Shown here: piece by piece, positions 28,779 to 53,155 of the stretch
Position numbering within the stretch: the stretch's first letter is position 1
Layout: each line of letters starts with the position of its first letter
DNA from: an uncultured Candidatus Saccharibacteria bacterium
GTDB lineage: Bacteria > Patescibacteriota > UBA1384 > JAMDBS01 > CAYSHH01
DNA: 64,000 nt
Direction: 5' to 3'
Assembly (NCBI GenBank): GCA_964430945.1
Contig: CAYSHH010000001.1
Coordinates: forward strand, 82,678-146,677
The notes under the pieces: model-generated
What the model saw: the letters and a program-made list of their open reading frames with translations, nothing else
The model's database searches: none
What the model was told of the DNA's origin: nothing
Position numbers and translations under genes: made by a program

Positions 28779-28859
28779 TTATTTTTTACCGCCACCAGCA
28801 ATAAGACCAATGATGATCAATATTACTATGACAATAATAACCCACCAATACCATGCCAT
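28779..28859 (-). CDS. Candidate 26-aa hydrophobic micropeptide (MAWYWWVIIVIVILIIIGLIAGGGKK)
   Basis: Unannotated small ORF. SD AAAAGGGG 7 nt upstream of the ATG. A single TM helix plus a KK tail. Not in the ORF track (below its size cutoff). Confidence 0.4.
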   Translation of the reverse strand: MAWYWWVIIVIVILIIIGLIAGGGKK

Positions 28860-29248
28860 AATTTACCCCTTTTACCCCACACGAGCGTGTGAGCTAATTA
28901 TTATTAATGTAATTATATCACTTTACAATAATAGGTAGTTGTTGATAACTAAAAATAATCACCAAAATGTGATTATTTTATGACTACAAAGCTCGGACAT
29001 CTCACTCGCTTCGCTCTTTAAAAACCACTCGGTTTTTAGTATTTTCCTCAAACGGGAAAACAATTGTTTTCCCGACCCCTTTCATGTTCGAGCCCTTCAA
29101 ACTACAAAACAAGACGAAAAAAGACGACATAAAGTCATCTTTCTTCGTCTGGCTCCCCGTTATGGTTCAGTACCAAGTATTTAAGGGTGATAATACTCTT
29201 GTCCGATTCCCGTAGTAAATCGATATAGAACTATCACATTATCACAAG

Positions 29249-30604
29249 TTATATATAAACTTTTCTATTTTTTAAGAAAATATCTGTATTAAGACATTTG
29301 AGTAAATCTTGTTTTTCTTGTTTACTGCCACACTCAAAAACATGCTTAATATAGCTTTTTTCATCAATTTTCTTTGGATTTTTGCGTATTTTGAGCTCGG
29401 TTTGTCTACAAAATTCATATACTGATTCACCAAAATTTATAAACTCCTCCATCTTATACCTAACTCTTTTATTATTTTTCACCTGTTTAATAATAAGCAT
29501 TTCATTAAATAGTTTCTCTAACTGTTTTGTTAAATCTTCTTCTCGTATATATGGCTCTTTACAGTCAAGATTTCTGAATTTAGTGCAGTGATAGTAAACA
29601 TATTGTTTTTTAGTGCTGTCCTTGCGAGTCTTAATTTTTTCTGAGGCAGTAACACCTGATCCACAAGCACCGCATTTAAGTATTTTTGTATAATCAAACT
29701 TCTTAGTATTGGGCCAGGTTTTTGGGCATACTACCAGCTTTTTCTGGACTTTATTAAATAAATCGCGACTTATAACTGCTTTGTGTTTAGTCTTGTACCA
29801 TTTCCCAGAACCCTTAGGAAATTCAAATATTCCACAGTAGTATGGATTATTTAATATTGAGTAGATCATACTATAAGATACTCGTTTATTTTTTCTAGTT
29901 CTAAATCTTATTTTATCAAGCCATTTAAAAATATCTCTACCGCTATATCCTTGATACGCTGCTTTCTGAAACATTTTCTTGATAATTGATATCTTCTTGC
30001 GATCAATTTTAATAGTATGATTTACTCTATTGTTTATAAAGCCAAGTGGCGCCATAGTAGGGCGATATCCCATCTCGCATTTTGCCTTCATTCCTCTTTT
30101 GGCATTAATCCCTCTGTTATCATTTTCTAGCTTTGCTTGAGATCCTAATATCATCAACAGGAATTTATCATTAGGTGAATTTCTAAACTTTTGATTATAT
30201 GTTCTAATTTCGGTTAAAAATCCATTATCCATCAAATCTACCAACACACCTAAATCTCCTGCATTACGGCTCAAGCGATCAATAGACCAGCTGATAATAG
30301 CACTATATTTCCCCAATTTAATATCATCAATCAATTGGTTGAAAACGGATCTTTGTCTTGATTCTTTGGCAGAATAGCTTTCGCGAAGAATATTTTTTAC
30401 CTTAATATTGCTATTTTGGGCATACTCCAGCATTTCCTTAACTTGTGAGTCAATAGACATTGCTTGTCTTTCATCTGATTCACTTGACTTGCGAGCATAA
30501 AGGCAATATCTAATTGACTTCTTCTTTTTAAACTCTGCAGTTTGGTTGTTTGAGGTAAAAAATGATGGTATATTTTTCAACTTATCTTTCCTTTCTATAT
30601 ACAT
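29249..30604 (-). CDS. Large serine recombinase (resolvase/invertase N-terminal domain, recombinase domain, zinc-ribbon)
   Basis: 451 aa. Catalytic Ser region CLYARKSSESDERQAMSIDSQ, DRLSRN, Cys-rich zinc ribbon CGACGSG...YYHC. Paralog of the recombinase at 51662-52954. Confidence 0.9.
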   Translation of the reverse strand: MYIERKDKLKNIPSFFTSNNQTAEFKKKKSIRYCLYARKSSESDERQAMSIDSQVKEMLEYAQNSNIKVKNILRESYSAKESRQRSVFNQLIDDIKLGKYSAIISWSIDRLSRNAGDLGVLVDLMDNGFLTEIRTYNQKFRNSPNDKFLLMILGSQAKLENDNRGINAKRGMKAKCEMGYRPTMAPLGFINNRVNHTIKIDRKKISIIKKMFQKAAYQGYSGRDIFKWLDKIRFRTRKNKRVSYSMIYSILNNPYYCGIFEFPKGSGKWYKTKHKAVISRDLFNKVQKKLVVCPKTWPNTKKFDYTKILKCGACGSGVTASEKIKTRKDSTKKQYVYYHCTKFRNLDCKEPYIREEDLTKQLEKLFNEMLIIKQVKNNKRVRYKMEEFINFGESVYEFCRQTELKIRKNPKKIDEKSYIKHVFECGSKQEKQDLLKCLNTDIFLKNRKVYI

Positions 30605-30666
30605 TCAGACTAATTTTTCAGATAAACAATGTCAATAAAATATACTTTAGCAAAATGAGACAAGAC

Positions 30667-30682
30667 AAATGAGACACTATAG
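30667..30682 (+). repeat. Direct repeat copy 1: AAATGAGACACTATAG, preceded by a tandem partial copy AAATGAGACA at 30653-30662
   Basis: Identical 16-mer at 38613-38628 (19 of 21 matches with flanks). The core GACACTATAGAA equals the SP6-promoter core. Confidence 0.7.
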
Positions 30683-30746
30683 AAAAGCAGGAATAAAAAT
30701 CTCAAACTATAATATTTAGATAAAGGTGAATTCAATATATATCCCC

Positions 30747-30776
30747 TTGACAAGCAATAAAACAAAGTGCTATACT
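30747..30776 (+). promoter_or_regulatory. Sigma-70-type promoter of the TetR gene
   Basis: TTGACA, 18-nt spacer, TATACT; 27 nt upstream of the ATG at 30803. Confidence 0.55.
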
Positions 30777-30802
30777 TTATTGGCTTACCGACCGGTAAGT
30801 AA

Positions 30803-31423
30803 TTGAAGGGAAAGTATATGTTAAATATAAACACTAGTTGTGATCAAAAAAAAATACTATATAATACGCAAAAAAAAATTATTGACACTGCTAGTCACTT
30901 ATTTTCTGAATATGGTTATTTTGGTGTCTCGATGAACGATATTGCTAAAAAACTGAATATTACAAAAGCTGCACTTTATTATCATTTTACAAGTAAATCT
31001 GAGATTTATAAAAATGTTCTTGACAAAGCTTTTTGCGATTTAAAAATATCGATATTAGAATTGTCTAAAGAAAAAGATGTAAATAATAGACTAAGAAAAT
31101 TAATTTATAAATACTTAGAAATAGGCACTAAAGAGAAAAATCTAATAAAAGCAATAGTTATTAAAATGCCTTCAACAAATAGAGAAATTATCAAACATAT
31201 TACTAACCTGAGAAGTCAAATTAAATTTATTATAAAACCAATAATTAACGAAATTTTTAAAAAGAAAAAAATAAGTGCTAGAGTGGACAGTGATTTATTG
31301 ACTTCATCACTGCTAAGCACTATGGATGGTTTCATTTTAGAGTATTCGTTTTTAAATAAAAAGATTGAAATAGAAAAATTATCAAATCAAATAACAGATT
31401 TGTTCATACAAGATATTAATTAA
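30803..31423 (+). CDS. TetR/AcrR family transcriptional regulator
   Basis: 206 aa. N-terminal HTH FSEYGYFGVSMNDIAKKLNITKAALYYHF. Confidence 0.85.
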   Translation: MKGKYMLNINTSCDQKKILYNTQKKIIDTASHLFSEYGYFGVSMNDIAKKLNITKAALYYHFTSKSEIYKNVLDKAFCDLKISILELSKEKDVNNRLRKLIYKYLEIGTKEKNLIKAIVIKMPSTNREIIKHITNLRSQIKFIIKPIINEIFKKKKISARVDSDLLTSSLLSTMDGFILEYSFLNKKIEIEKLSNQITDLFIQDIN

Positions 31424-31438
31424 CATGAAGGATTATAT

Positions 31439-34400
31439 ATGAAATTTACAGAAATTTTTGTTAAAAGACCAGTGACAACAATTATGATAATGCTGATTGT
31501 TATTCTTTTGGGTGTAGTTTCTTTAAGTGGTATCTCTTGGGATTTGCTGCCAGAGATCGAACTACCGATGGCAGGAGTGATAACAGTTTATCCAGGATCC
31601 TCTCCAACTGAAGTTGAAGAATTGGTGACCAAACCTCTAGAAACAGAATTAAGCACAGTTAATAATTTAGATTCCGTAAACTCTATTTCACAAGAAAATA
31701 TGTCCATAGTAATGTTTAAATTTAATTGGGGGGTCAATGTTGATGAGGCTGCGATTGAACTTAGGGATAAACTCGAATTAGTAAAAGCAAATCTTCCATC
31801 TGGTATCCAAACGCCAACTGTAATCAAATTTGATCCAACCTTAATGCCTACTATGGAATTGGCTGTTTCTGACGGAAAATCAATAGAAGATTTAACTAAA
31901 ATAATAAACGATACCATCAAACCTGATCTTGAAAAAGTTCCAGGTGTAGCATCTGTTGAACTTATCGGTGGATTGGATTCGGAAATTAAAATACAAGTTG
32001 ATCAAGAAAAAATGAGTCAGGCGGGACTGAGCTACGACCAACTTTTGCAGGTGCTAAAATCTCAAAATCTCTCTATTCCAGCAGGTGAAATAGAAAAAGA
32101 CAACAAAAAAATGGACGTTCGAGCAACTGCATCAATTGATAATATTGATCAGATAAAAGACATAATCGTAGGATATAAAACTGCAAATTTATCTTCCAGT
32201 GCTAATCAAGTCAGCACTGTTTCTGCTTCATATCTTTCCTATCAAGCAATACCTCAACCAGTTTATTTGAAAGATATTGCTGAAGTTGACTGTGATGTTG
32301 AAGAAACAACATCAATTAACAAATTAAATGACCAAAAAGCTGTTGGTCTTTCTATTCGCAAAGAAGGAAGCGCTAATACAGTCAAAGTTTCAAATGAAGT
32401 TAAAGAAAAAATTGATAGAATTCAAGAGGAGAACAATGTTGATATTGCAATTATTATGAATCAAGCAGAAATTGTTGAGAATTCTATAAACAATGTTGCA
32501 ATAACTGGAATTATCGGAGCAATTATAGCGATTATTATTTTATTTTTCTTTTTAAAAGATATAGGAAGCGCTTTGATTGTTGGCATTTCAATTCCTTTTT
32601 CAGTTATTGCCACATTTGCCTTGATGTATGCATCTGGCATTTCCATGAATCTTATGAGTTTGGGTGGATTGGTTTTAGGGATTGGCATGCTTGTGGATAA
32701 TTCTATTGTTGTATTGGAAAACATTTATAGGCACTTCAAAGAGAAAGGTAAAACTGCATTTCAAGCAGCAATTGAAGGAACTAAAGAAGTGGCTGGTGCT
32801 ATCACTGCATCTACACTCACTACTTTGGCAGTTTTCTTGCCAGTAGTATTTTTAGGTGGTTTAGCGGGACAATTATTTAAAGATTTTTCTTTGACTATTG
32901 TTTTTTCTTTAAGTGCATCATTATTGGTTGCATTAACAATACTTCCTATGCTGGCTTCTAAATTTATGAAAAAAAATAATGCAAGACAAGCAGTAAAAGA
33001 AAATAAATTATTAAAAATATATGAGCCAATAATAAAATGGTCTCTAAAAAATAGATTTGCTGTTATTGTAATTGCAATAGGTCTATTGGCGGGGAGTATT
33101 GCATTGATACCAGCTGTTGGAACCGAGTTGATTCCCGACATTGATCAAGGATATGTTGCAATATCTGCAAAATTACCCAATGGAACTAAATTAGAAAAAA
33201 GTGAAGAGCTGGCTGAAGAAATTGAAGTGATGCTTTTGGATTACGAGGAGATTAGCAACATCTCTGCAAATATTGGAAGTGACAGTCAAAATATGGCTTC
33301 AATTATGGGTGACAGCGGAAACAATATTGTTAAAATTAATGCAAAGCTTAAAGCAAAAAATGAACGAGATATTTCTACTGACGAATTTGTCAAAGAAGTC
33401 AAATCAAAATTGGAGGTTATAACAGGCGGTAGAGCCGAATCCTCAATTGCCAAAACAAATGCCATGATGGATATTGGAACAACGATTGAATATAAAATAA
33501 GTGGCAATGATGATCAAGATATTAAAAAAATCAGTGACAATCTTGTGGATAAAATTAAAAATATTAACGGACTTATAAATGTATCCTCTGATATTTCTGA
33601 GCAAAAGCCGGAAATTGAAATTTTAGTAGACAATAACAAAGCAATGAGTCAAGGGCTAGTGCCTGCTCAAGTCATTAATGCTGTTTACACCACTACAGGA
33701 ACTACAAAAGTCATGGAAATAGAAAAAGATGATGATATTATGGATGTAAATATTGAGCTTCGAAAAGAAGATAAAGCATCAATAGATGATCTTAAACAAT
33801 TAGAGCTAACTACCACTCAAGGCAAAAAAATAAAATTAGAGGAGGTTGCTGAAATTAAAGACTCTTTAGGACCAGTAAAAATTACCAGAGAAAATCAATC
33901 ACGTACAGCAACAATTTCTGCTAGTTTAAACGATACATCTCTTAGCAAAGCCGACTCTCAAATTCAAGAAATAATTGACAGTCTTGAAATCCCTTCAGGG
34001 CTAGAAATCACTCAAAGCGGTATACATGAAATGCAGGATGAATCATTTGATAATATTTATATTGCCTTAATCTTTGCTGCAATATTGGTGTATATGATTA
34101 TGGCAGCTCAATTTGAACGTTTGCTACATCCTTTTATCATCATGTTTTGTATACCCCTTGCACTTATAGGGGCGATATTAGGACTTTTAATGACAAATAT
34201 ACCTTTAGGTATTACTGCGATGATTGGCTTTGTAGTTTTGGTGGGTATAGTGATTAATAATGGTATTGTATTGGTTACTTATGTGGAGCAATTACAAGAA
34301 AAAGGAATGTCAAAGGAAGAAGCTCTTATCGAAGGTGGAAAAACAAGATTAAGACCTATCCTTATGACTGCAATTACTACAATTGTTGGATTAATTCCTT

Positions 34401-34564
34401 TAGCTCTAAATCTTGGCGAGGGATCAGAAATGATGAAACCTGTAGCTATTGTAGTAATCGGTGGAATGATTACCTCAACTTTGCTTACATTAATAGTTAT
34501 TCCTGTAGTATACTCTTTGCTTGATAGAAAAAAGACTGTAAAAGCTGATTCAATTCAAAATTAA
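31439..34564 (+). CDS. RND superfamily efflux transporter permease (AcrB/HAE-like, 12 TM, two large periplasmic loops)
   Basis: 1041 aa. N-terminus FVKRPVTTIMIMLIVILLGVVSLSGISWDLLPEIELP. Duplicated 6-TM bundles. No adjacent MFP or OMP gene. Confidence 0.85.
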   Translation: MKFTEIFVKRPVTTIMIMLIVILLGVVSLSGISWDLLPEIELPMAGVITVYPGSSPTEVEELVTKPLETELSTVNNLDSVNSISQENMSIVMFKFNWGVNVDEAAIELRDKLELVKANLPSGIQTPTVIKFDPTLMPTMELAVSDGKSIEDLTKIINDTIKPDLEKVPGVASVELIGGLDSEIKIQVDQEKMSQAGLSYDQLLQVLKSQNLSIPAGEIEKDNKKMDVRATASIDNIDQIKDIIVGYKTANLSSSANQVSTVSASYLSYQAIPQPVYLKDIAEVDCDVEETTSINKLNDQKAVGLSIRKEGSANTVKVSNEVKEKIDRIQEENNVDIAIIMNQAEIVENSINNVAITGIIGAIIAIIILFFFLKDIGSALIVGISIPFSVIATFALMYASGISMNLMSLGGLVLGIGMLVDNSIVVLENIYRHFKEKGKTAFQAAIEGTKEVAGAITASTLTTLAVFLPVVFLGGLAGQLFKDFSLTIVFSLSASLLVALTILPMLASKFMKKNNARQAVKENKLLKIYEPIIKWSLKNRFAVIVIAIGLLAGSIALIPAVGTELIPDIDQGYVAISAKLPNGTKLEKSEELAEEIEVMLLDYEEISNISANIGSDSQNMASIMGDSGNNIVKINAKLKAKNERDISTDEFVKEVKSKLEVITGGRAESSIAKTNAMMDIGTTIEYKISGNDDQDIKKISDNLVDKIKNINGLINVSSDISEQKPEIEILVDNNKAMSQGLVPAQVINAVYTTTGTTKVMEIEKDDDIMDVNIELRKEDKASIDDLKQLELTTTQGKKIKLEEVAEIKDSLGPVKITRENQSRTATISASLNDTSLSKADSQIQEIIDSLEIPSGLEITQSGIHEMQDESFDNIYIALIFAAILVYMIMAAQFERLLHPFIIMFCIPLALIGAILGLLMTNIPLGITAMIGFVVLVGIVINNGIVLVTYVEQLQEKGMSKEEALIEGGKTRLRPILMTAITTIVGLIPLALNLGEGSEMMKPVAIVVIGGMITSTLLTLIVIPVVYSLLDRKKTVKADSIQN

Positions 34565-34620
34565 TATTGAGAATATTACAAATAGTAAATAAATATTAAC
34601 CAGTTCAAAAGTGATATTAG

Positions 34621-35100
34621 ATGAAAAAATATCCTGATAAAAATTTTATTTCAGAGGGTATATACGGAATGGTCACATGTTTGGCAGTTATTTTGATTAT
34701 GGAAAGCCATTTATCAAATTATTGGGATGCATCTTTAACCTTATTTGGTTCTGTATTGGTAGTTACACTCGCAAAAGCATATAGTGATACTATTGCTGAA
34801 GTGATTACTCAAAAAAGAAAATTAGAGTTGTCAGAATTAAGAATAGTCTGGTATCATGCAGCCCCCATACTTATATCTGCAAATATCCCCACATTAATTA
34901 TTTTACTGTCTGGCTTGGGATTATATTCTGTGTCCACAGCTTTATATGTATCTAAAATATTCATTTATATTTTATTGTTTTTATATGGAATTAAGATGGG
35001 TCAGCTTATGCATGAATCCAGGATAAGGATAATATTCAGTGGGCTTATGACATGTGGTATAGGATTGTTAATTAGTTTTATTAAAATGTTTTTTCACTAA
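34621..35100 (+). CDS. Hypothetical polytopic membrane protein
   Basis: 159 aa, 4-5 TM helices, no recognisable motif. Confidence 0.4.
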   Translation: MKKYPDKNFISEGIYGMVTCLAVILIMESHLSNYWDASLTLFGSVLVVTLAKAYSDTIAEVITQKRKLELSELRIVWYHAAPILISANIPTLIILLSGLGLYSVSTALYVSKIFIYILLFLYGIKMGQLMHESRIRIIFSGLMTCGIGLLISFIKMFFH

Positions 35101-35129
35101 ATGTATAAATATTAAATAATTAATAGATA

Positions 35130-37551: not shown

Positions 37552-37600
37552 AAAGTCGTTTATTGTGAAATAAATAAAAATATTATCAAACATTATCGTT

Positions 37601-38628: not shown

Positions 38629-38671
38629 GAAATGGTTGTTTTAATTCTCATTTTCTGATTAGAATATAAAT

Positions 38672-39683: not shown

Positions 39684-39701
39684 GTTAAGAAAGGAATAAA
39701 A

Positions 39702-43889: not shown

Positions 43890-43930
43890 GTCAGTTATCT
43901 GTCATTACTGTATGTCAGAAAGGAATATAT

Positions 43931-45609: not shown

Positions 45610-45627
45610 AAATCATTATTTATGAAT

Positions 45628-48600
45628 TTAATTTAATTCTTTTTTTATTTCTTCAATTATTTGATCTCTATTATAATTGTTATTTATCCAATTTGAATAT
45701 TTAATTCGTAAAAACTTCCAACCTGCTGATTCAAGAACCATTTGTCTTTTTATATCGGAATCAATATATTCCATATTTTCTTCATCAGAAAAATGACAAG
45801 GTCCATCACATTCAATTGCAAGCTTTGTATTATTCTCTTTATTTTGAATTACAAAATCAATATAATAACCACAAGTTGGTACCTGATTATAAATTAAATA
45901 TTTCTTACTTTGTAGTTTATTATTAGCTAAATCATAAAATTCTTTTTCGAAGTTTGAATCAAAACTACGAAGTTCCTTTTTTGTGCTTTCAACTACTCCG
46001 TTTGTTTCAATATAGCATAAGAATTTATCAAGCCATATTTTTTCTGGCCATTCCCTATAATCTAAGCTAGTAAAACAATGTACTTGTAGTCTAGCTCGAG
46101 AAAAAGCAACATTTATTCTACCCCTGACTATTTCTGGACGTATGTCTCCACCTTCACCAGTTAAAGCTACATATTGCATTTTTTGAGATGGATCATGTAT
46201 AACTAACGAAAAAATTACTATATCTCTTTCTTCTCCTTGTATACCATCAATAATACCAATTTTAATATTATGGTCTATTCCAAATGTGTTCTCAATTTTT
46301 TTTCTTATTAAATCTGCTTGATCATTAAAAAAAGATAGTATTGCTATCGATTTATCTTTGTATATAGGATCTTTTTTAATATCTTTAATAAACTTAATAA
46401 TTTCATTAGCCTCATTTGAATTCACACTTGGTGAAATATTTTCCTTATCTTCTGTATCATATTTAACTAAATGATTTACTAATACACGATTAGTATCCTT
46501 GTATGTTAGATATGAATTATTAACAACTTTCAGACTATTATCATAAAAATTTTCATTACAAAAACCTATAATTTCAACAGGTGATCGATAATGTTCTTCT
46601 AAAAATTTTGATTTAATACCTCTGAGTATGCCAATATCTAGTATCGATTTAATATTTTCATATCTTCCCATTATTCTGTAATCTTCATCGATATCAAATC
46701 TTAATGCCAAATCTTCTAAAATAGATTTCTTTTTAAACAGTACTGTATCATCCCTCATTTGTTTAGGATCGCCAACGATTATTGCTTTTTCTGCCCGATA
46801 CATTGTTGGAAGTGCATATGCAATATTACATTGTGATGACTCGTCTAATATTACATAATCAAATAAGTTTTGTTCTAAGGGTAGAACTCTGCTTGCATCC
46901 TCTAAATTCATTATCCATATAGGAACAATATTTGATACTGCACTAAAAATAGATAAATCATTTCTTAATCTTTCGAAGGTCTTAAAAGCTTTTTTAGATT
47001 TCTTTAAACCTTTTGCAAAACTAATTATTTTTCCTCGAATAGTGGCTTTCAAATCTTTATAAAGAGAGACTTTGTATTTTATCTGATTACGGAGATATTG
47101 TCCTACGATTTTTTGTCTATTCTTTTCAAAATCATTTATTTCATTTGATATATTTGAATAATCAATAAAATCAATCTCGATTATTTGTTCTGTGATTTTA
47201 TTAAATTCAAAAAAATCCGATAATTCTTTTTTTTGATTTTGTGAAGATAAAATTATTTTAATTATTCTTTTTAACTCATCTAGGGTAGTATTAATAGATT
47301 CTAAAAACTCATTTATTTGTTCCCGAGTATTTTCTATTTGCAATCTTTGTTCCTGAAATACACAATATCTTTGTACTGATTCAAAAAATTTTACTTTTGT
47401 TCCGAGTGACTTAGTTTTATCAGCAAGACATTTTTTCAAAATGCTCGTCATTTCTTTAGGCATCTTTTCTATGTTGTTCCGGTGAGCTTTTTGAAGTTGT
47501 ATTTTTTTAATTATTGATTTAATCAAATTTTGATTATCGTAATCAAACTGAATCATCTCATCAATCATTTCTTCCACATCTGCTGATAAATTTTTCTCCC
47601 AATACATTGCCAAAACTGTTGAGAAGAATTCTGAGAATTTATCAAATTCCTTTTTGTAAGTATTCTCGTAATCCTTCCTTCTTTTTTCTAAGTATGAGAT
47701 TTTGTTTATTTTTTCCTGAAGATTTTTAACAGTTTCCAAATTAAGCTTTTCTTCTAATTTTCTATAGTTTTCTAAATAAAAATATTCTTCCGGATATTTT
47801 TTAATTTTTTCTTTTAAATGAAAAATGGTTTCTTGTTGTTTAATACCTTTGTTAAAAAGTAATGACTTTTCTACAATTTCTTTAATTTGTTTTTGTATAT
47901 CTTGTTCATCAATATTGTGTCGGGATAAGAAACTATCTAATTTTAATCGTTCTAAAGAATTAGAAAAACTATCATAAATTTGTTTTTCTGTTATGTCGCT
48001 AGTCATATAACCAAATAAATGATCAATTCCCAAATCATTCATTTTGTCTTTTACCACTCTCAACGCTTGCTGTTTTTGACTAACAAATAATATTCTTTTT
48101 CCTTTTGCAACTAAGTGGCAAAGTAAATTTGATATTGTCTGGCTTTTGCCAGTTCCTGGAGGACCTTCAATAATAAATGCTTTGTTTTGCAAAAATTGTA
48201 TTACTTTTAGTTGACTACGATTATATTTAAAAGGATAAAATATATTTCCTTGTTTAATAGATTCGTTATCGACTAGATTGAGTTCATTATCGCTTTCCTG
48301 GGACCATACTCCAATACTAGATTTAGCAAGTTCTTCATTTTTCTTTTCAGATAATATTTCTAGATCTTTAGTAAGAAAATAATTACTTTTAGGCGCTAAA
48401 CTTAATGATATTATTGAAAAATCGCAATTGTTCTGAGCAAAATTTATCTTAGTTAATCTTAATTTATTTACTAAAATTTCACCTAGTTCTTTTAGAATTT
48501 TAATATTTCCCGGTAGATTTAACTTGGTATCTTGGTCAAATTTACCAAAATCTTTTAACAAGTCATAATAAAAATCTTCATTTTCTAGAATATTCTCAAA

Positions 48601-49155
48601 CATGCTTAAATCATAATATATCTTATCGTCTGTGATTTTTAGAGAATATCCTCCTCTGATTTTTTTTATTGAAACCTTAATATAAAAAAGAAAACTCGAA
48701 TGTGCTTCTTGGTTCAAAAACGTACCGTCTTTTTCTATTCTTTTTCCACCTCTTAATTTAGCTTTCTGAGATAATTGGTGATCAATATTAAAACTAAATT
48801 CACCGAATCTTACTATAATATCTTTAGTAAATTCCTGGTTTTTTTGTGCAGATATTAAATTCTCGATGTTTAAAGCAATATCCTTTTCAAATTCATAGTC
48901 TTTCTGGTTTTCTTCGGTTACTGTTTTAGGGGTATACTTGTTTAAAACTTCAAGTTTGATATTTACTTTATTATTGTCTGCATTAAAAGCTAAAACATCA
49001 TCAATTTTAAGATATTTTTCATTTAATGAAATATATTCTTTTGGCCTGAGAGATGCATTGCATATCCTAAGATATCCCAAACAATATTTAATATAATTTG
49101 ATAGAAATTTTTTTTGTTCATTGTCGGAAGATTCTGATTGATTATTATTTATCAT
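45628..49155 (-). CDS. Large SF1 (Upf1/DNA2-like) helicase with N-terminal DUF4011-like region and C-terminal Vsr/DUF559-like endonuclease domain
   Basis: 1175 aa. Walker A IIEGPPGTGKSQTI, motif II YVILDESSQ, GDPKQM, motif VI VAFSRAR. C-terminal DUF559-like LAIECDGPCHF...WKFLRI. Confidence 0.8.
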   Translation of the reverse strand: MINNNQSESSDNEQKKFLSNYIKYCLGYLRICNASLRPKEYISLNEKYLKIDDVLAFNADNNKVNIKLEVLNKYTPKTVTEENQKDYEFEKDIALNIENLISAQKNQEFTKDIIVRFGEFSFNIDHQLSQKAKLRGGKRIEKDGTFLNQEAHSSFLFYIKVSIKKIRGGYSLKITDDKIYYDLSMFENILENEDFYYDLLKDFGKFDQDTKLNLPGNIKILKELGEILVNKLRLTKINFAQNNCDFSIISLSLAPKSNYFLTKDLEILSEKKNEELAKSSIGVWSQESDNELNLVDNESIKQGNIFYPFKYNRSQLKVIQFLQNKAFIIEGPPGTGKSQTISNLLCHLVAKGKRILFVSQKQQALRVVKDKMNDLGIDHLFGYMTSDITEKQIYDSFSNSLERLKLDSFLSRHNIDEQDIQKQIKEIVEKSLLFNKGIKQQETIFHLKEKIKKYPEEYFYLENYRKLEEKLNLETVKNLQEKINKISYLEKRRKDYENTYKKEFDKFSEFFSTVLAMYWEKNLSADVEEMIDEMIQFDYDNQNLIKSIIKKIQLQKAHRNNIEKMPKEMTSILKKCLADKTKSLGTKVKFFESVQRYCVFQEQRLQIENTREQINEFLESINTTLDELKRIIKIILSSQNQKKELSDFFEFNKITEQIIEIDFIDYSNISNEINDFEKNRQKIVGQYLRNQIKYKVSLYKDLKATIRGKIISFAKGLKKSKKAFKTFERLRNDLSIFSAVSNIVPIWIMNLEDASRVLPLEQNLFDYVILDESSQCNIAYALPTMYRAEKAIIVGDPKQMRDDTVLFKKKSILEDLALRFDIDEDYRIMGRYENIKSILDIGILRGIKSKFLEEHYRSPVEIIGFCNENFYDNSLKVVNNSYLTYKDTNRVLVNHLVKYDTEDKENISPSVNSNEANEIIKFIKDIKKDPIYKDKSIAILSFFNDQADLIRKKIENTFGIDHNIKIGIIDGIQGEERDIVIFSLVIHDPSQKMQYVALTGEGGDIRPEIVRGRINVAFSRARLQVHCFTSLDYREWPEKIWLDKFLCYIETNGVVESTKKELRSFDSNFEKEFYDLANNKLQSKKYLIYNQVPTCGYYIDFVIQNKENNTKLAIECDGPCHFSDEENMEYIDSDIKRQMVLESAGWKFLRIKYSNWINNNYNRDQIIEEIKKELN

Positions 49156-49165
49156 TTAAAATCCC

Positions 49166-50086
49166 TTATTTAAATTTATTATAAATCTGTTTTATTAAAA
49201 ATAAAGCATATTCCAGGTCATCTTCATTTTTAATCGAAAATTCTGTCTGGTGTTTATGATAATATTTGTAACTATTTTTTATATATAGAAGAGTTTTCTT
49301 TGGATCTTTAAAATCTTTGGGTTGCACCCTATTTAATATTAAATTTAATTTATTTCTTTGAGATTTAAACTCAAATAAAACTCTAGAATCCATCTTGTAA
49401 CCAATGTAATATTTTTGTGGACTTTCTTCTAAATTTGGGTAAACTTCTAAAATGTTTTCTCTAATCTTATCAAAAAGTTCTTTTGATTTTTCCCAGCCTT
49501 TTTTAAAATGATCATCTATTGTATACTTTTTAACTTCTTTAGATACTTTTTGAACTATACCACTTGTCTTAGAAAGAGTTTTTATTGATTCTGAGGTTTC
49601 AGGAGATACAAGCTGATCAAATTCAATAATATTGCCAGAGTATTTGGCAACCTTCCAAAGTTCAATTGGTAAATCATTAAAATTAATAGCTTGCTTTTGA
49701 TGTTTTGTATAACTTCTTGCAACAAAAATTACTCGTGTTTGTGACCAGTCAACTTGATCTTTTTTAAGACTATCTTTCTGAGTTTCATTGTAATGTAAGA
49801 TAAAGTCAGCTTTATTATTAAGAGCCAAGCTTAAATACGCATATCCTTGATCAATAACAGATATATTTCTGTCTTTTTTGTATTCAATAATCACAAAGGA
49901 TTTTGATTCATCATCAAAAGCAAGAGTATCAATACGTAAGTTGTTGAGTGCAAATTCTGTAGCAATAAATTTGAGTCCAAAAATCTCTGAAAGATTTTTT
50001 TCAGCAAGAGTTTGAATATCTTTTTCCAAATCAAAAGAAAATTCTTTTACTAGCTCTAATTTGTTATTGACTTTCTTAAAAAGCAT
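49166..50086 (-). CDS. PD-(D/E)xK nuclease-like protein (RecB/Cas4-like core with QxxxY)
   Basis: 306 aa. D in RIDTLAFDDE, E-x-K in VIIEYKK, then IDQGYAY (QxxxY). Confidence 0.6.
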   Translation of the reverse strand: MLFKKVNNKLELVKEFSFDLEKDIQTLAEKNLSEIFGLKFIATEFALNNLRIDTLAFDDESKSFVIIEYKKDRNISVIDQGYAYLSLALNNKADFILHYNETQKDSLKKDQVDWSQTRVIFVARSYTKHQKQAINFNDLPIELWKVAKYSGNIIEFDQLVSPETSESIKTLSKTSGIVQKVSKEVKKYTIDDHFKKGWEKSKELFDKIRENILEVYPNLEESPQKYYIGYKMDSRVLFEFKSQRNKLNLILNRVQPKDFKDPKKTLLYIKNSYKYYHKHQTEFSIKNEDDLEYALFLIKQIYNKFK

Positions 50087-50145
50087 ACTTAAATTATACT
50101 TCCAAACAGGTTAGAACACAACCTTTTAATAAAAAGTAAACGTAT

Positions 50146-51255
50146 TTAATTTAATTTGTCGGCAGCAGATTTAATCTTTGAAATTAGTTTTTGAATATTT
50201 AAATCATCAAATAATTCAAAAGCAGTAATCTTTCCATCTTCATAACTACTAAGAGATCTGAAATATTCTACATACTTTTTGATAGGTGAACATTCCTCAT
50301 TCATTTTACAAAGTTTGTCATATTGTTCGTTTGGATAGCTGAAAGTTAATCTTGGACTGTTGTCTTTGATTTCAAAGAATAGATAAGAAAAATTGTTATA
50401 CCCACCAGGTTTTTTGATATCTTCTGGAAATGGTGTCATAAGAGAAAATCCATTCTTTCTCCATGTAACTTTTACATTTTTGGAATTCTGAAAGTTATCA
50501 AGTAACTTAATGGCTAACTGCTTTGCATTACCACTAAGCTTATTTACAAAATCATTTTGCGCGATTGGAGTTCTATCATAATCATCTGACTTTGTAATAT
50601 TCTTGGTAACACTTTTCCTGTATGGGTTGGCAAGACGAGGAACAAGAAACTTTTGATTTTTATCGCCAATAAGCTCCATTTGGGCAATATAAAAGTCAAT
50701 TTCTTGACCAGTCCTATCATTAAGATAGTTAGCAATATTTTTAAGCTCATCATTTACTTTATCTACTACTATCAAGATACTAAAGCTTCCTAATCTTAAG
50801 CGTTTTTCAATTCCTTCCTTAAAATCACTTTCTGAAAAACTATCGCCAAATTTTTCCTTAAGATAATCGGATAAATTACCTTGATATTGGATTTTCTCTT
50901 GTAAAAGATATTGTTTGAAATAATTTTCAATATCTTCGTAATTTTTATTCCATAAATACGAAGCATATCCTAGAGCTTGTCCGACAACAGTTCTTTTCAC
51001 TTCTGGGTTTTGATCAAGTTTTGTCTCAATAATTACAATCTGACCTTGCGGACTTACTGCCAATAGATCAAGATAGCCATTTTCTAAAGATACTTCTTTA
51101 CCTATAGTTACGAATTGATCAGAATAACCCATATCTTCAAAAGGTAAAGTATTTACATCTTTTGATAATATATCTTGAAGTTCAGATTCATTTTTATATG
51201 CCTGTTTTTGAGTTTTAGTCCAACCATCTTTAGTTTTATGTAATATGTGTGTCAT
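50146..51255 (-). CDS. PD-(D/E)xK nuclease-like protein, paralog of the downstream gene
   Basis: 369 aa. YLDLLAVSPQGQIVIIETKLDQN (D...ExK), then GQALGY (QxxxY). Confidence 0.6.
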   Translation of the reverse strand: MTHILHKTKDGWTKTQKQAYKNESELQDILSKDVNTLPFEDMGYSDQFVTIGKEVSLENGYLDLLAVSPQGQIVIIETKLDQNPEVKRTVVGQALGYASYLWNKNYEDIENYFKQYLLQEKIQYQGNLSDYLKEKFGDSFSESDFKEGIEKRLRLGSFSILIVVDKVNDELKNIANYLNDRTGQEIDFYIAQMELIGDKNQKFLVPRLANPYRKSVTKNITKSDDYDRTPIAQNDFVNKLSGNAKQLAIKLLDNFQNSKNVKVTWRKNGFSLMTPFPEDIKKPGGYNNFSYLFFEIKDNSPRLTFSYPNEQYDKLCKMNEECSPIKKYVEYFRSLSSYEDGKITAFELFDDLNIQKLISKIKSAADKLN

Positions 51256-51344
51256 ATCTTCCTTTCTATATAACTAAAAAACCACAGTTAAAAACTGTGA
51301 TTAAATAATAAAATATAAATTGTAATTTAATATTACTTTCATAT

Positions 51345-51487
51345 TGTCGCAGTGGATTTCTGTGAACGAAAGAGTACAAAAAGGGTCTCCCGTTCACCGA
51401 CAGCTCTTACGAAACTGCCTACTACCTTTCGGTAGTAACCACTGCGACATGATAGTGAGACGGAAGACCGTCTTTATGTCGCAGTGG
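51345..51487 (+). ncRNA. GC-rich structured element. The 11-mer TGTCGCAGTGG occurs at 51345-51355 and 51477-51487, with an inverted copy CCACTGCGACA at 51439-51449 and internal hairpins. Candidate ncRNA or recombination/regulatory site.
   Basis: Read from the sequence. Nested stems GTGAACG/CGTTCAC and CTACC/GGTAG, plus a terminator-like GAGACGG-aaga-CCGTCTTTAT. Local GC is well above the surroundings. Confidence 0.45.
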
Positions 51488-51661
51488 AATATTTATTAAA
51501 ACCATATCTTACATATAAATATATAAGGGTTAGGTTTGTTTCTAACTAATTGTTACTAACAGGTATATAATAGCATAAATAAACATTAAATAAAAGTATT
51601 TCTACCTGTTAGTTATCTACATCTAGACATATATCACATTATCCGGCATCCTTACCTTGCT

Positions 51662-52954
51662 ATGCAGACAATTCTATCCAAAGGAAAGAAAATTAATTTC
51701 TGCTTATATGCTCGCAAATCATCAGAACGTGATGAATTGCAAGCTTTGTCAATTGAGACTCAGGTAAACGAAATGCTTGCTATTGCTAAAAGAGATGATT
51801 TGAAAATCATAGATATTCGTAAGGAATCTCATTCAGCAAAAGACAGTGGTGAGCGTCCAGTTTTCAGATCAATAATAAACGATATAAAAGCTGATAAGAT
51901 TCAGGGAATTCTCACCTGGGCACCAGACAGATTAAGCCGAAATGCTGGTGATTTAGGGTTATTAGTCGATCTTATGGATCAAAAGTATTTGCTTGAAATT
52001 AGAACGTATAATCAAATATTTACCAATTCACCGAATGATAAATTTCTGCTGATGATACTAGGATCACAGGCAAAATTAGAGAATGACAATAAGGCGATAA
52101 ATGTTAAAAGAGGATTAAAAGCAAAGTGCGAGATGGGATTTAGACCAGGCATGTCACCATTAGGGTTTATCAATGACAAATATGCTAAAAAAGGTGAAAA
52201 AAAAGTTCGTTTAGATCCAAAACGTGCTCCTATTATGAAGGAGATGTTTAAAAAAGTTGCTTCAGGAGAGAGTGGTCGAGCAGTATTTCGGTGGCTTAAT
52301 CAAACGGGCTTTACTACCAGATCAGGTAAAAAAGTAACTTTAAGCTTAGTATATGATATGCTTCATAATTCATATTATTGTGGTAAATTTGAATATCCAA
52401 TAGGAAGTGGCAATTGGTATAAAGTTGGACATGAAACTTTAATCTCAGAAGAAACTTTTAATCAAGTTCAACAAGTATTAGAAGTCGCTCCCAAATCTAG
52501 ACCAGGAACCAAAGAATTTGATTTTACTAGACTTATTAAATGCGGTTCTTGCGGTTCTGGTGTGGGAGCTGAAGAAAAATTTAAAACTCTCAAGAACGGA
52601 AGTAAAAACAGATATGTATATTATCATTGTACTAAAGGCGCTGATCGAAACTGTAAAGAATTATACATCAGAGAAGAAGATTTAGTTGAGCAATTGATTC
52701 AATTGATAGATAAACTTGATATTAACCAATTTGATGCTCAGAGGAAACTTCGAAATGAAATTGCTAGATATGAAAGATTTACTAAAGGAGTATTAGGTGA
52801 GAAAACAAATCATATCGGAAAAACAAACAAGGTAAAAATACACAATTATGCAAAATATGTCTTAAAGAATGGAACCAGAGAAGAAAAAAGAGAATTGTTA
52901 AGTTGTCTCAAAACAAAATTATACCTTAAAGACCAGAAAATATATATGCAATAG
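51662..52954 (+). CDS. Large serine recombinase (paralog of 29249-30604)
   Basis: 430 aa. FCLYARKSSERDELQALSIETQ, DRLSRNAGDLG, zinc ribbon CGSCGSG...YYHC. Collinear with the other recombinase, roughly half the residues identical. Confidence 0.9.
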   Translation: MQTILSKGKKINFCLYARKSSERDELQALSIETQVNEMLAIAKRDDLKIIDIRKESHSAKDSGERPVFRSIINDIKADKIQGILTWAPDRLSRNAGDLGLLVDLMDQKYLLEIRTYNQIFTNSPNDKFLLMILGSQAKLENDNKAINVKRGLKAKCEMGFRPGMSPLGFINDKYAKKGEKKVRLDPKRAPIMKEMFKKVASGESGRAVFRWLNQTGFTTRSGKKVTLSLVYDMLHNSYYCGKFEYPIGSGNWYKVGHETLISEETFNQVQQVLEVAPKSRPGTKEFDFTRLIKCGSCGSGVGAEEKFKTLKNGSKNRYVYYHCTKGADRNCKELYIREEDLVEQLIQLIDKLDINQFDAQRKLRNEIARYERFTKGVLGEKTNHIGKTNKVKIHNYAKYVLKNGTREEKRELLSCLKTKLYLKDQKIYMQ

Positions 52955-52957
52955 TTT

Positions 52958-52980
52958 GGTTCGAGTCCGATTTCTGGTCA
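52958..52980 (+). repeat. Inverted partial copy of the tRNA-Asn 3' end (GGTTCGAGTCCGA exact, 17 of 23 overall), immediately after the recombinase stop codon
   Basis: Compared by eye with the tRNA-Asn gene at 53081-53155, where the corresponding segment lies at 53092-53105 on the opposite strand. Confidence 0.5.
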
Positions 52981-53080
52981 AACAAAAAAAGCGTTTTTAA
53001 ACACTCTTTTTGATGTACATATGTTTTCTAGCTAACCTGTAATCCCTTGACAGGAAATGGTCGCCAGGAACATATGGTGT

Positions 53081-53155
53081 TGGCTCCGGAGCTCGGACTC
53101 GAACCGAGAACCCTCTCGTTAACAGCGAGATGCTCTGCCATTGAGCTACTCCGGA
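53081..53155 (-). tRNA. tRNA-Asn (anticodon GTT)
   Basis: Manual fold: U1-A72 acceptor TCCGGAG/CTCCGGA, anticodon arm TCTCG-CTGTTAA-CGAGA, T-arm CTCGG-TTCGAGT-CCGAG, discriminator G, CCA encoded. Confidence 0.8.

What the first reader, a model, noticed from the sequence alone, without database searches (positions are those of the whole stretch)
28779..53155. Accessory region bracketed by two outward-facing paralogous large serine recombinases, tRNAs and a tRNA 3'-end remnant
The two large serine recombinases (29249-30604 minus; 51662-52954 plus) are clearly paralogous: same architecture, roughly half their residues identical. They point outward from about 21 kb of accessory cargo: TetR/RND/ABC/patatin, the phage-like module, and the nuclease/helicase operon.

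The right end abuts tRNA-Asn (53081-53155). An inverted 13-nt exact copy of the tRNA T-arm/acceptor segment, 17 of 23 counting flanks, sits directly after the recombinase stop (52958-52980). The left side has tRNA-fMet and tRNA-Met (27040-27282) followed by small membrane-protein genes. Dual serine recombinases and tRNA-associated remnants suggest one or two integrated elements with a non-canonical att arrangement, or two tandem islands.
Basis: partly seen in the sequence, partly recalled or inferred. Interest (0 to 1): 0.62.

Follow-up and report, generated by a model that had tools for sequence, protein, structure and literature searches.

The report
Two-recombinase mobile island in tRNA-Asn
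A 24-kb block of foreign genes (drug-efflux, phage-packaging and anti-phage defence genes) sits inside the end of a tRNA gene of a tiny-genome "candidate phyla radiation" bacterium, carried by large serine recombinases that belong to a big, apparently undescribed family of tRNA-targeting mobile elements.

Summary
Two intact large serine recombinases (LSRs), 52% identical, face outward at 29249-30604(-) and 51662-52954(+), next to tRNA-Asn.

The host is a Patescibacteria (CPR) genome. The island is 29157-53080. It is bounded by a 7-bp direct repeat, TGGCTCC, which is the last 7 nt of tRNA-Asn. Removing the island restores a normal tRNA 3' flank. An older tRNA-Asn 3' copy lies at 28981-28998.

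LSR-R belongs to a module found in dozens of contigs: ParB-methylase, methylase, TerS, TerL, variable defence cargo, LSR, then a convergent tRNA. Of 65 relatives with enough downstream DNA, 35 have such a tRNA. No phage structural genes were found, so the element looks satellite-like rather than a prophage.

LSR-L sits at the tRNA-distal end with TetR/RND/ABC/patatin cargo. A second island (tRNA-Leu, 8-bp repeat) pairs the same two LSR clades in the same geometry. One two-recombinase unit is slightly favoured over two abutting elements, but this is unresolved.

The "tRNA remnant" after LSR-R is real, but it is an inherited relic of the clade's end module, not this insertion's att scar. The orphan Rfam LOOT RNA is a hallmark of the family.

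The parts
28950..28980 (.). Hairpin, probably the original terminator downstream of tRNA-Asn. It now lies 24 kb from the gene.
   Evidence: Read from the sequence: taaaaataatcaccaaaatgtgattatttta, directly following the displaced tRNA 3' copy on the tRNA strand. L005 and L164 have the same layout.
28981..28998 (-). Degenerate displaced copy of the tRNA-Asn 3' end (TGACTACAAAGCTCGGAC; 14/18 match to 53081-53098). This is the outermost, older scar.
   Evidence: It is the only other hit with <=4 mismatches in the window; shuffles give 0.1. In L001 and L005 an analogous copy of the tRNA-Ser 3' end precedes the same X sequence.
28999..29149 (.). 'X-module': about 150 nt of conserved non-coding sequence. 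It has a perfect 20-nt palindrome (29053-29074), a T-loop-like GTTCGAGCC (29086) and a hairpin spacer. It normally abuts a tRNA 3' end. Here it is the pre-existing flank (B arm) of the insertion.
   Evidence: 87.5% identical to L001 3230-3322 and L005 7762-7870, both next to tRNA-Ser. A second copy at L005 12950-13125 abuts an intron-containing tRNA.
29150..29156 (.). Left copy of the 7-bp direct repeat TGGCTCC (reverse complement of GGAGCCA, the tRNA-Asn 3' terminus). This is the distal junction.
   Evidence: TGGCTCC occurs only at 3915, 29150 and 53081 in 64 kb. Homology with L163 (94.8% over 2.6 kb) stops at 29144.
29157..29248 (-). Element arm between the LSR-L stop codon and the distal junction (P' arm).
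   Evidence: Conserved with L163 up to the junction.
29249..30604 (-). LSR-L, a large serine recombinase of clade D. It sits at the tRNA-distal end and is transcribed in the same direction as the tRNA.
   Evidence: Pfam domains. It forms an NJ clade with L163, L164 (P0127) and L166 (P0125), none of which has a convergent tRNA.
30667..30686 (+). 20-nt motif AAATGAGACACTATAGAAAA in the LSR-L/TetR intergenic region. It is repeated at 38613-38632.
   Evidence: 2 hits against 0.04 expected. Among the other loci it is present only in L163.
30803..38446 (+). Cargo block 1: TetR (30803-31423), AcrB-type RND pump (31439-34564), a 159-aa unknown, ABC ATPase, ABC-2 permease, and a patatin-like phospholipase (37601-38446).
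   Evidence: Pfam. TetR and the start of AcrB are shared with L163.
38613..38632 (+). Second copy of the 20-nt motif, upstream of the 304-aa gene.
38672..44185 (+). Conserved family module: 304-aa unknown, ParB-N6 methylase (39893-41188), methylase (41175-41921), TerS-like (41924-42331), TerL (42288-43889), 84-aa unknown.
   Evidence: phrog_498 1.9e-89; TerL phrog_38 7e-78; TerS weak. The ParB-methylase/(methylase)/TerS/TerL order recurs upstream of the LSR in L165, L167 and dozens of IMG/VR contigs; a homolog of the 304-aa gene was found only in L167.
44452..51255 (-). Defence-candidate cassette in the TerL-LSR cargo slot: DUF2130, SF1 helicase + REase_MTES_1575 (PDC-S37), DUF5655 (PDC-S18), and a 369-aa PDC-S11-like protein.
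   Evidence: PADLOC 2.8e-76, 2.8e-103 and 6.1e-23; Pfam. In relatives this slot holds 0-8 kb of differing genes.
51399..51536 (-). LOOT RNA (Rfam RF03000). It is divergent from LSR-R and upstream of the PDC-S11-like gene.
   Evidence: 59.4 bits against a gathering score of 46.4; 103.7 bits with own model R1.
51662..52954 (+). LSR-R, a large serine recombinase of clade R. It sits at the tRNA-proximal end, tail-to-tail with tRNA-Asn.
   Evidence: Pfam. Its clade includes L081/L083 (82%, at tRNA-Gln), L084 and L165.
52958..52980 (+). Fragment resembling a tRNA T-arm plus acceptor strand, in LSR sense. It is followed by a terminator-like hairpin (about 52984-53012).
   Evidence: 13-nt exact inverted match to the tRNA-Asn T-arm; unique in the window. 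Equivalent motifs lie 110-131 nt from the tRNA end in L083, L085, L092, L096, L171 and L165.
53033..53080 (+). Element arm abutting the tRNA (P arm): aacctgtaatcccttgacaggaaatggtcgccaggaacatatggtgt.
   Evidence: Conserved with L081 and L083, which are inserted at tRNA-Gln, right up to the tRNA end.
53081..53155 (-). Intact tRNA-Asn(gtt). Its last 7 nt (53081-53087) form the right copy of the direct repeat and contain the crossover.
   Evidence: ARAGORN and Rfam, 69.1 bits; repeat positions.

Best explanation
Window 29157-53080 is a 23.9-kb mobile island inserted by serine-recombinase site-specific recombination into the last 7 nt (GGAGCCA) of tRNA-Asn in a Patescibacteria genome. The tRNA is left intact.

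The tRNA-proximal part belongs to a large family of compact, phage-satellite-like elements. Their layout is: 304-aa gene, ParB-methylase, methylase, TerS, TerL, a swappable defence-gene slot, LOOT RNA, then LSR-R. Their LSR lies about 100-400 nt from, and tail-to-tail with, the 3' end of a tRNA gene.

The distal part (LSR-L with TetR, RND, ABC and patatin genes) carries a recombinase of a sister clade. That clade is always found at the tRNA-distal end, pointing outward.

I take the two parts to form one excisable composite. Recombination between the two TGGCTCC junctions would release a circle in which the two LSR genes converge on a roughly 225-bp attP region. It would also restore the X-spacer|tRNA-Asn site.

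Shown: the boundaries, family membership, tRNA targeting and the recurrent pairing. Inferred: the exact crossover position, activity of either enzyme, packaging by a helper phage, and movement of the island as a single unit.
For: Host and site variability:
- The host is a CPR bacterium.
- Relative L001 has a different 8.2-kb island with an LSR and a LOOT RNA at the same tRNA-Asn.

Boundaries:
- The 7-bp repeat lies only at the two ends, plus one unrelated site.
- The break in L163 homology falls at 29144.
- The P arm is conserved with L081 and L083 up to the tRNA end, although those elements sit in tRNA-Gln.
- The reconstructed empty site resembles the natural unoccupied site at L005 13090-13150.

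tRNA targeting:
- 35 of 65 LSR relatives with >=800 nt of downstream DNA have a convergent tRNA within 1.5 kb. The tRNAs include Gln, Asn, Ser, Lys, Asp, Gly, Trp and Glu.
- L108 has an 18/20 direct repeat of its tRNA end 11 kb away.

Family module and cargo:
- The module recurs in dozens of IMG/VR contigs.
- TerL matches phrog_38 at 7e-78.
- Cargo in relatives is defence genes, and no structural genes were found in the samples examined.

Single-unit reading:
- An independent island, SRR30728738_3476, has the same layout. It has a distal LSR, LOOT and defence cargo, then ParB-methylase/methylase/TerS/TerL and a proximal LSR, followed by CBASS genes (SMODS + SAVED) before the tRNA-Leu.
- In that island the 8-bp TGGTACCC occurs only at the two ends.
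- Its distal LSR clusters with LSR-L and its proximal LSR with LSR-R.
- L166, also clade D, shows the ParB-methylase operon reading away from the LSR.
Against: Against a single unit:
- LSR-R-clade enzymes occur alone (L081, island <=9 kb) and without the terminase module (L243).
- The LSR-L/TetR end is 95% identical in L163, whose flanking DUF308 gene is only 79% identical. LSR-R's nearest relatives are only 82% identical. This hints at separate histories.
- Multi-LSR arrays in various orientations are common: six IMG/VR contigs, L088, L106 and L243.
- In L194/L206, outward-facing LSRs each have their own convergent tRNA.
- The two end arms show no significant dyad or direct similarity.
- The absence of an internal repeat copy is weak evidence, because the tandem pair in L106 also lacks one.

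General gaps:
- No excised circle and no empty site of the same species was found.
- No replication gene or recombination directionality factor was identified.
Confidence: 0.55

Rival explanations
1. There are two independent LSR elements lying side by side at tRNA-Asn. An older distal one carries LSR-L and the efflux/patatin cargo (about 29157-38500). Its att polarity places its recombinase at the far end. A younger proximal satellite-like one (about 38500-53080) carries LSR-R. Each would excise on its own, and the outward-facing geometry would be a by-product of opposite att polarity in two sister clades.
For: - Accretion of several LSRs at one locus is frequent.
- LSR-R relatives work as single-LSR islands.
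- The 95% identical LSR-L/TetR/AcrB segment in L163, against a 79% identical flank gene, suggests recent separate transfer.
- The cargo beside clade-D LSRs differs between islands.
- The conserved module starts at the 304-aa gene, as in L167. That gives a natural internal border at 38447-38671.
Against: - Successive integrations should leave an internal copy of the tRNA 3' end at the border. None exists in the window (TGGCTCC) or in the second island (TGGTACCC). The control L106 shows that such copies can be missing.
- The same D-distal/R-proximal pairing recurs with co-clustering of both partners.
- A 20-nt motif is shared by the promoter regions of both halves.
Confidence: 0.35
2. The region is a decayed prophage of a CPR phage that has lost its structural genes. 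The LSRs would be its integrase plus a second, unrelated recombinase.
For: - TerS, TerL and ParB-methylase are phage-type genes.
- IMG/VR lists many relatives as viral contigs.
Against: - The compact order ParB-methylase/TerS/TerL/(cargo)/LSR/tRNA is conserved across dozens of contigs with 40-60% protein identity. Random decay does not produce that.
- The DNA examined upstream and in the cargo slot of relatives encodes defence genes: GmrSD, DUF2779, OLD-like, McrB-like AAA_5 and methylases. No capsid, portal or tail proteins were found.
- The unknown ORFs in the window have no PHROG structural hits.
Confidence: 0.07
3. The two inverted LSR genes form a DNA-inversion switch that flips the 21-kb segment between them.
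For: The genes are inverted relative to each other. The only long inverted repeat lies within the LSR genes themselves (I1, 266 nt, 74%).
Against: - There are no inverted att-like repeats at the ends. The ends carry direct repeats of the tRNA terminus.
- Family members are overwhelmingly single LSRs next to tRNAs.
- Both enzymes have the full large-serine-integrase architecture.
Confidence: 0.03

Closest known systems
Large serine integrases of temperate phages and integrative elements (phiC31, Bxb1, A118, SPbeta SprA, TnpX/TndX)
   Same: Both have the resolvase catalytic domain, recombinase domain and zinc ribbon. The recombinase gene lies within about 100-150 bp of the element end, and the sequence identity between the two junctions is very short.
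   Different: The target here is the 3' terminus of tRNA genes, across many tRNA species. The known examples I recall use protein-coding or intergenic sites (my own knowledge, not tested). This island also has a second paralog at the opposite end.
tRNA-integrating genomic islands and satellites driven by tyrosine integrases (Islander-type islands, P4, PICI; PMC4383910)
   Same: Integration is at a tRNA 3' end. The gene is regenerated and a displaced fragment marks the far end. The locus is occupied differently in relatives.
   Different: The enzyme is a serine recombinase, not a tyrosine recombinase. The repeat is only 7-8 bp in this clade, though 17-18 bp in L108 and around the X-module.
Phage satellites with defence hotspots (PICI, cf-PICI, P4-like)
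   Same: These are small integrative elements with packaging genes, no virion genes, and a variable slot filled with anti-phage systems.
   Different: This element carries TerL as well as TerS and a ParB-methylase. No primase/replicase or capsid-remodelling gene was found. The host is a CPR bacterium. Helper dependence is entirely untested.
SCCmec CcrA/CcrB
   Same: Two paralogous large serine recombinases sit in one chromosomal island that inserts at the 3' end of a conserved gene.
   Different: The ccrA and ccrB genes are adjacent and co-transcribed. Here the paralogs are 21 kb apart at opposite ends, and the target is a tRNA, not rlmH.
Tycheposons of Prochlorococcus (bioRxiv 10.1101/2020.12.28.424599)
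   Same: They are tRNA-associated, form tandem arrays, come in cargo-carrying and PICI-like (terS) versions, and a minority (27 of 937) carry a large serine recombinase.
   Different: They occur in a different phylum. Most use tyrosine recombinases and replication modules. They have no TerL/ParB-methylase module and no LOOT RNA.
LOOT RNA motif (Rfam RF03000)
   Same: The window copy passes the family's gathering score (59.4 against 46.4).
   Different: I could find no functional context for this motif in the papers held. Here it is tied to one family of mobile elements.

Membership tests
Large serine recombinase (serine integrase) | N-terminal resolvase catalytic domain, followed by a recombinase domain and a zinc beta-ribbon domain | tested here: met
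   All three Pfam domains are above their cut-offs in both proteins.
Large serine recombinase (serine integrase) | Conserved catalytic serine/arginine motif near the N-terminus | tested here: met
   The YARKSSE motif is present in both. R18 is invariant and S20 nearly invariant in a 20-sequence alignment.
Large serine recombinase (serine integrase) | Catalyses attP x attB recombination with a 2-bp staggered crossover | not testable with these tools
   Only the 7-bp junction identity is seen.
tRNA-integrated genomic island | Abuts an intact tRNA gene at one end | tested here: met
   tRNA-Asn at 53081-53155 scores 69.1 bits.
tRNA-integrated genomic island | A displaced copy of the tRNA 3' end, in direct orientation, at the far end | tested here: met
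   TGGCTCC at 29150 and a 14/18 copy at 28981.
tRNA-integrated genomic island | Absent or different in related genomes | tested here: met
   L001 has a different 8.2-kb island at the same site. L005 has an unoccupied X-spacer|tRNA junction. No empty site was found in the same species.
Phage satellite (PICI-like) | Integrase plus packaging gene(s), without virion structural or lysis genes | tested here: met
   LSR, TerS and TerL are present. The window's unknown ORFs and sampled relatives show no structural hits.
Phage satellite (PICI-like) | Own replication module (primase/replicase and origin) | tested here: not met
   No primase, helicase-replicase or Rep domain was found among the island's ORFs.
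Phage satellite (PICI-like) | Induction and packaging depend on a helper phage | not testable with these tools
   This needs experiments or virome read mapping.
Intact prophage | Portal, capsid, tail and lysis genes | tested here: not met
   None were found in the island.
SCC-type CcrAB cassette | Adjacent co-oriented ccrA/ccrB pair, with insertion at the rlmH 3' end | tested here: not met
   The genes are 21 kb apart and inverted, and the target is a tRNA.
LOOT RNA (RF03000) | Covariance-model score above the Rfam gathering threshold | tested here: met
   59.4 bits against 46.4.

The most novel reading that the evidence does not exclude
The island is a genuine two-integrase element. Clade-R and clade-D serine recombinases are encoded at opposite ends. 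In the excised circle their genes converge on one asymmetric attP. They would act together, each reading one arm: the tRNA-like arm or the non-tRNA arm. This would move a terminase-bearing, defence-carrying satellite between the tRNA genes of CPR bacteria. The LOOT RNA would be the element's regulatory RNA.
Probability: 0.2. Interest if true: 0.8.

Novelty: new variant of a known kind. Interest (0 to 1): 0.62.

Why it matters
- CPR/Patescibacteria have tiny genomes and few described mobile elements. This family gives them a recognisable vehicle for defence and efflux genes. It was found in more than 200 fetched loci, and about 8000 proteins score E<=1e-30 against either LSR.
- It shows that serine integrases, not only tyrosine integrases, have colonised the tRNA 3'-end niche.
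- The enzymes are well conserved, and their attB sites are predictable from tRNA genes. That makes them easy candidates for integrase toolkits.
- The orphan LOOT RNA gains a biological context.
- The recurrent distal/proximal LSR pairing is a concrete, testable case of possible two-recombinase cooperation.

Tried and rejected
- **Empty site or circular junction in the same species.** Exact-protein look-ups of rpoD, LSR-R, patatin and DUF308 returned nothing or only contigs from one sample (SRR13007709) with the same arrangement.
- **Walking from L163 through the cargo.** A patatin homolog search found nothing above 60% identity.
- **Similarity between the two end arms.** Neither dyad nor direct similarity is significant.
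- **Internal tRNA-end copies as a test for tandem accretion.** The control tandem pair in L106 also lacks one, so the test is weak.
- **The T-arm-like motif as a family-wide feature.** Rejected: 7 of 123 LSRs against a 4% background. It is restricted to one clade but fixed in position.
- **L218 (two abutting convergent LSRs) as the excised form.** Rejected. The second gene is truncated and is not clade D.
- **X-module as a tRNA, or as the target of LSR-L.** No tRNA is called there, and L163 lacks X at the same junction.
- **L005's 502-aa ORF next to the X-like copy as an LSR.** It is a GATase-domain protein.
- **A LOOT-like RNA near LSR-L.** None was found.
- **Close relatives in IMG/VR using single-protein patterns.** None. 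An alignment-based scan did work.
- **Literature on CPR serine integrases at tRNAs, or on LOOT.** Nothing relevant was found.

Full report
**1. Observation**

The window carries seven tRNA genes. They include tRNA-Asn(gtt) at 53081-53155(-) and two tRNA-Met at 27040-27282(-).

ORFs at 29249-30604(-) and 51662-52954(+) each contain Resolvase, Recombinase and Zn_ribbon_recom domains. They are 52% identical over 431 residues, E 8e-164. I call them LSR-L and LSR-R.

The genes between them, in order, are:
- TetR, an AcrB-type pump, an ABC ATPase with ABC-2 permease, and a patatin.
- A 304-aa unknown, a ParB-N6 methylase, a second methylase, a weak TerS and a clear TerL (phrog_38, 7e-78).
- On the other strand: DUF2130, an SF1 helicase fused to a REase (PADLOC PDC-S37), DUF5655 (PDC-S18, 2.8e-103) and a PDC-S11-like protein.

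The 13-nt inverted copy of the tRNA-Asn T-arm directly after the LSR-R stop is real, and the 22-mer is unique. In the whole window, T-loop-like motifs outside tRNA genes occur only there and at 29086.

**2. Host and site variability**

The rpoD gene next to tRNA-Asn finds only Patescibacteria/CPR metagenome-assembled genomes as close relatives. The best is L001 at 84%.

L001 keeps the flanks: dnaG, rpoD and tRNA-Asn on one side, and TMEM175, two tRNA-Met and the 600-aa protein on the other. Between them it has 8.2 kb instead of 25.8 kb. That stretch holds a different LSR (39% identical to LSR-R) whose ORF runs 42 nt into tRNA-Asn, plus a LOOT RNA. L050 also has tRNA-Asn followed by a convergent LSR. 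So the locus is a variable integration site.

**3. A tRNA-targeting LSR family**

Protein searches with either LSR return about 8000 hits at E<=1e-30. The top 120 are 48-100% identical to the query, and the few that carry source names are almost all from Patescibacteria groups.

I fetched 80 metagenome loci around LSR-R relatives. Of 65 LSRs with at least 800 nt downstream, 35 have a tRNA gene on the opposite strand within 1.5 kb, 3' end to 3' end. The tRNAs are Gln, Asn, Ser, Lys, Asp, Gly, Trp and Glu.

The closest relatives (82%; L081, L083) sit at tRNA-Gln. The roughly 48 nt just outside the tRNA end are conserved with window 53033-53080 right up to ...GT|TGG(C/T)TCCGG. That stretch is therefore the element's own arm, and the junction lies at or within the tRNA terminus.

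In the distant relative L108, an 18/20 direct repeat of the tRNA end lies 11 kb away.

**4. Boundaries in the window**

A Logan contig, L163, carries an LSR 95% identical to LSR-L. It matches window 31734-29144 at 94.8% and then diverges a few bases after ...GGGGAGCCAGA. On the + strand this is TGGCTCC at 29150-29156, identical to the first 7 nt of tRNA-Asn read on that strand (53081-53087). The heptamer occurs only once more in 64 kb, at 3915.

Left of it lies a 150-nt 'X-module' (28999-29149). In relatives L001 and L005 the same module abuts the 3' end of tRNA-Ser, between a displaced copy of that tRNA's end (a perfect 17 nt in L005) and the intact gene. A second L005 copy abuts a tRNA that carries a group I intron and shares the acceptor end of tRNA-Asn.

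Deleting 29157-53087 from the window gives ...TTTCTTCGTC|TGGCTCCGGAGCTCGG. This closely resembles the natural L005 junction, ...TCTTTTCGT|TGGCTCCGGAGGTCGG.

Further left, 28981-28998 is a 14/18 copy of the tRNA-Asn 3' end, the only hit with <=4 mismatches against 0.1 in shuffles. A hairpin follows it. This is the trace of an older event that put the X-module there.

The island proper is therefore 29157-53080 (23.9 kb). The LSR-L stop is 92 nt from one end, and the LSR-R stop is 126 nt from the other.

**5. What the proximal half is**

An alignment-based scan of IMG/VR gave 69 loci. In most of them the order is ParB-methylase, (methylase), TerS, TerL, 0-8 kb of variable genes, then the LSR. Wherever the contig extends far enough, a convergent tRNA often follows. 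L165 and L167 show the same order.

The variable slot and the DNA upstream of the module encode methylases, a McrB-like AAA_5, VWA, GmrSD, DUF2779, OLD-like ATPases and, in other loci, HsdRMS, AbiV, PycTM and CBASS. I found no portal, capsid, tail or lysis genes in the window or in the relatives I sampled.

This is the anatomy of a satellite-like, defence-carrying integrative element rather than a prophage. However, no replication gene was seen, and helper dependence is untested.

**6. The two recombinases**

LSR-L lies at the tRNA-distal end and is transcribed in the same direction as the tRNA. Read in its own sense, the sequence after its stop runs into ...GGGGAGCCA, which is tRNA sense. LSR-R runs into TGGCTCC..., which is tRNA antisense.

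A second, independent island (Logan SRR30728738_3476, 23.7 kb; loci L164 and L165) has the same design:
- An outward-facing distal LSR (P0127), followed about 530 nt later by ...GGGGGTACCA plus a terminator.
- LOOT, a PDC-S11-like gene and defence cargo.
- ParB-methylase, methylase, TerS, TerL and a proximal LSR (P0014).
- CBASS, a T-arm-like relic, and then ...GT|TGGTACCCGAGG, the tRNA-Leu 3' end.

TGGTACCC occurs only at these two junctions.

In a neighbour-joining tree of 97 LSRs, LSR-L, L163, P0127 and P0125 (L166) form one clade. None of them has a convergent tRNA, and the two whose loci show the ParB-methylase module (LSR-L and P0125) have it reading away from the LSR. LSR-R, L081, L083, L084 and P0014 form another clade. 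The pairing of a distal clade with a proximal clade is thus repeated at 56-66% protein identity.

A 20-nt motif is shared by the LSR-L/TetR intergenic region and the region upstream of the 304-aa gene. These points favour a single two-recombinase unit.

Several points count against it:
- LSR-R-clade enzymes occur singly or without the module.
- Multi-LSR arrays in several orientations are common.
- One outward-facing pair (L194/L206) is simply two elements at two convergent tRNAs.
- The LSR-L end is 95% identical in a genome whose neighbouring core gene is 79% identical.
- The end arms show no significant symmetry.
- The missing internal repeat is weak evidence.

I put the single-unit reading at roughly 0.5-0.55 and two abutting elements at about 0.35.

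**7.

The T-arm/acceptor-like fragment after the LSR-R stop is not family-wide: 7 of 123 LSRs have one, against a 4% background. In LSR-R's wider clade, however, it lies at a fixed distance from the target tRNA end. That distance is 110-131 nt in the window, L083, L085, L092, L096 and L171, and 128 nt in L165, whatever the tRNA and wherever the LSR stop falls. L081 has a decayed version.

A terminator-like hairpin follows it, which is exactly how a displaced tRNA end plus its terminator looks. I read it as an old captured junction that has become part of the element's end module. A present-day role, such as mRNA 3' processing or an accessory site, cannot be excluded.

**8. LOOT RNA**

Rfam finds a LOOT RNA at 51399-51536(-), 126 nt upstream of and divergent from LSR-R. 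A model built from seven copies finds 47 copies in the window plus 137 LSR-anchored loci. In 60 rpoD-anchored control loci it finds only two, and both lie inside the LSR islands of L001 and L033.

Typical positions are 130-230 nt upstream of and divergent from the LSR or the ParB-methylase gene, or about 70 nt downstream of an LSR stop. LOOT is thus a hallmark of this element family. Its role is unknown.

**9. Known versus new**

The enzymes are ordinary large serine recombinases by domain content. The island is an ordinary tRNA-linked genomic island in outline.

What I could not find described is:
- A large serine-integrase family specialised on tRNA 3' termini in CPR bacteria.
- Its fixed association with a ParB-methylase/terminase module, a defence slot and the LOOT RNA.
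- The distal/proximal two-LSR geometry.

The nearest analogues are tyrosine-integrase tRNA islands, PICI- or P4-type satellites with defence hotspots, SCCmec CcrAB, and the minority of LSR-bearing tycheposons. I rate it a new variant of a known kind, with interest about 0.6.

Noticed in passing
window 51399-51536(-); also L001 10862-11004, L033 18146-18261, L164 8275-8402, L166 8589-8716, L197 5297-5418, L206 4067-4179 and about 40 more loci: The orphan Rfam motif LOOT (RF03000) is tightly linked to this LSR/terminase element family. There are 47 hits in 137 LSR-anchored loci plus the window, against 2 in 60 control loci, both of those inside LSR islands. It is usually divergent from the LSR or ParB-methylase promoter, or just downstream of an LSR stop. 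It precedes varied genes, including PDC-S11-like and T4 endonuclease IV-like genes.
   Followed up: partly
window 28999-29149; L001 3237-3370; L005 7762-7900 and 12950-13125: This is a conserved 150-nt non-coding 'X-module' with a perfect palindrome GGGAAAACAATTGTTTTCCC and a T-loop-like GTTCGAGCC. It sits immediately 3' of tRNA genes. In L001 and L005 a duplicated tRNA-Ser 3' end brackets it (17 nt perfect in L005), as if it were a miniature insertion. Its nature (mini mobile element, scar or small RNA) is unknown.
   Followed up: partly
L033 12076-12345(+); L005 13174-13371(-): In two relatives, Rfam finds a group I intron at the spot where tRNA-Asn is expected (L033) or inside a tRNA whose 3' end matches tRNA-Asn (L005). 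ARAGORN calls no tRNA at either place. The window's tRNA-Asn has no intron.
   Followed up: partly
window 56228-56315(-) versus L001 3371-3459: tRNA-Ser(gga) next to dnaG is inverted relative to dnaG/rpoD between the window and L001. Both orientations occur among the relatives L002-L018. The divergent orientation in L001 and L005 is the one that carries the X-module.
   Followed up: no
window 30667-30686 and 38613-38632: The 20-nt motif AAATGAGACACTATAG(A/G)AAA occurs twice, upstream of the TetR/efflux operon and of the 304-aa/ParB-methylase operon (0.04 expected). It may be a shared operator. Elsewhere it is found only in L163.
   Followed up: partly
window 37601-38446: The best homologs of the patatin-like phospholipase cargo gene reach only 55-60% identity. 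At 48-57% identity the list includes proteins labelled Pacearchaeota/Nanoarchaeota (DPANN archaea). This hints at gene sharing between the two groups of ultra-small episymbionts.
   Followed up: no
L001 6626-8167(-); L108, L123 and L128 (LSR stops 40-76 nt inside the tRNA): In a more distant branch of the family, the LSR reading frame ends inside the antisense strand of the target tRNA. The enzyme's C-terminus is therefore encoded across the attachment junction.
   Followed up: no
L218 10001-12569; L087/L088; L243 4735-10946; IMG/VR contigs 3300042286_000458, 3300000970_000154, 3300032737_000190, 3300014205_009253, 3300009873_002614: Arrays of two family LSRs on one contig are frequent. They include same-strand pairs 1-37 kb apart and one pair of convergent genes whose stop codons are about 4 nt apart, one of them truncated.
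   Followed up: partly
window 12001-13000: This 1-kb stretch has a GC content of 0.24, the lowest in the window, next to tRNA-Ile(tat) at 11574-11649.
   Followed up: no
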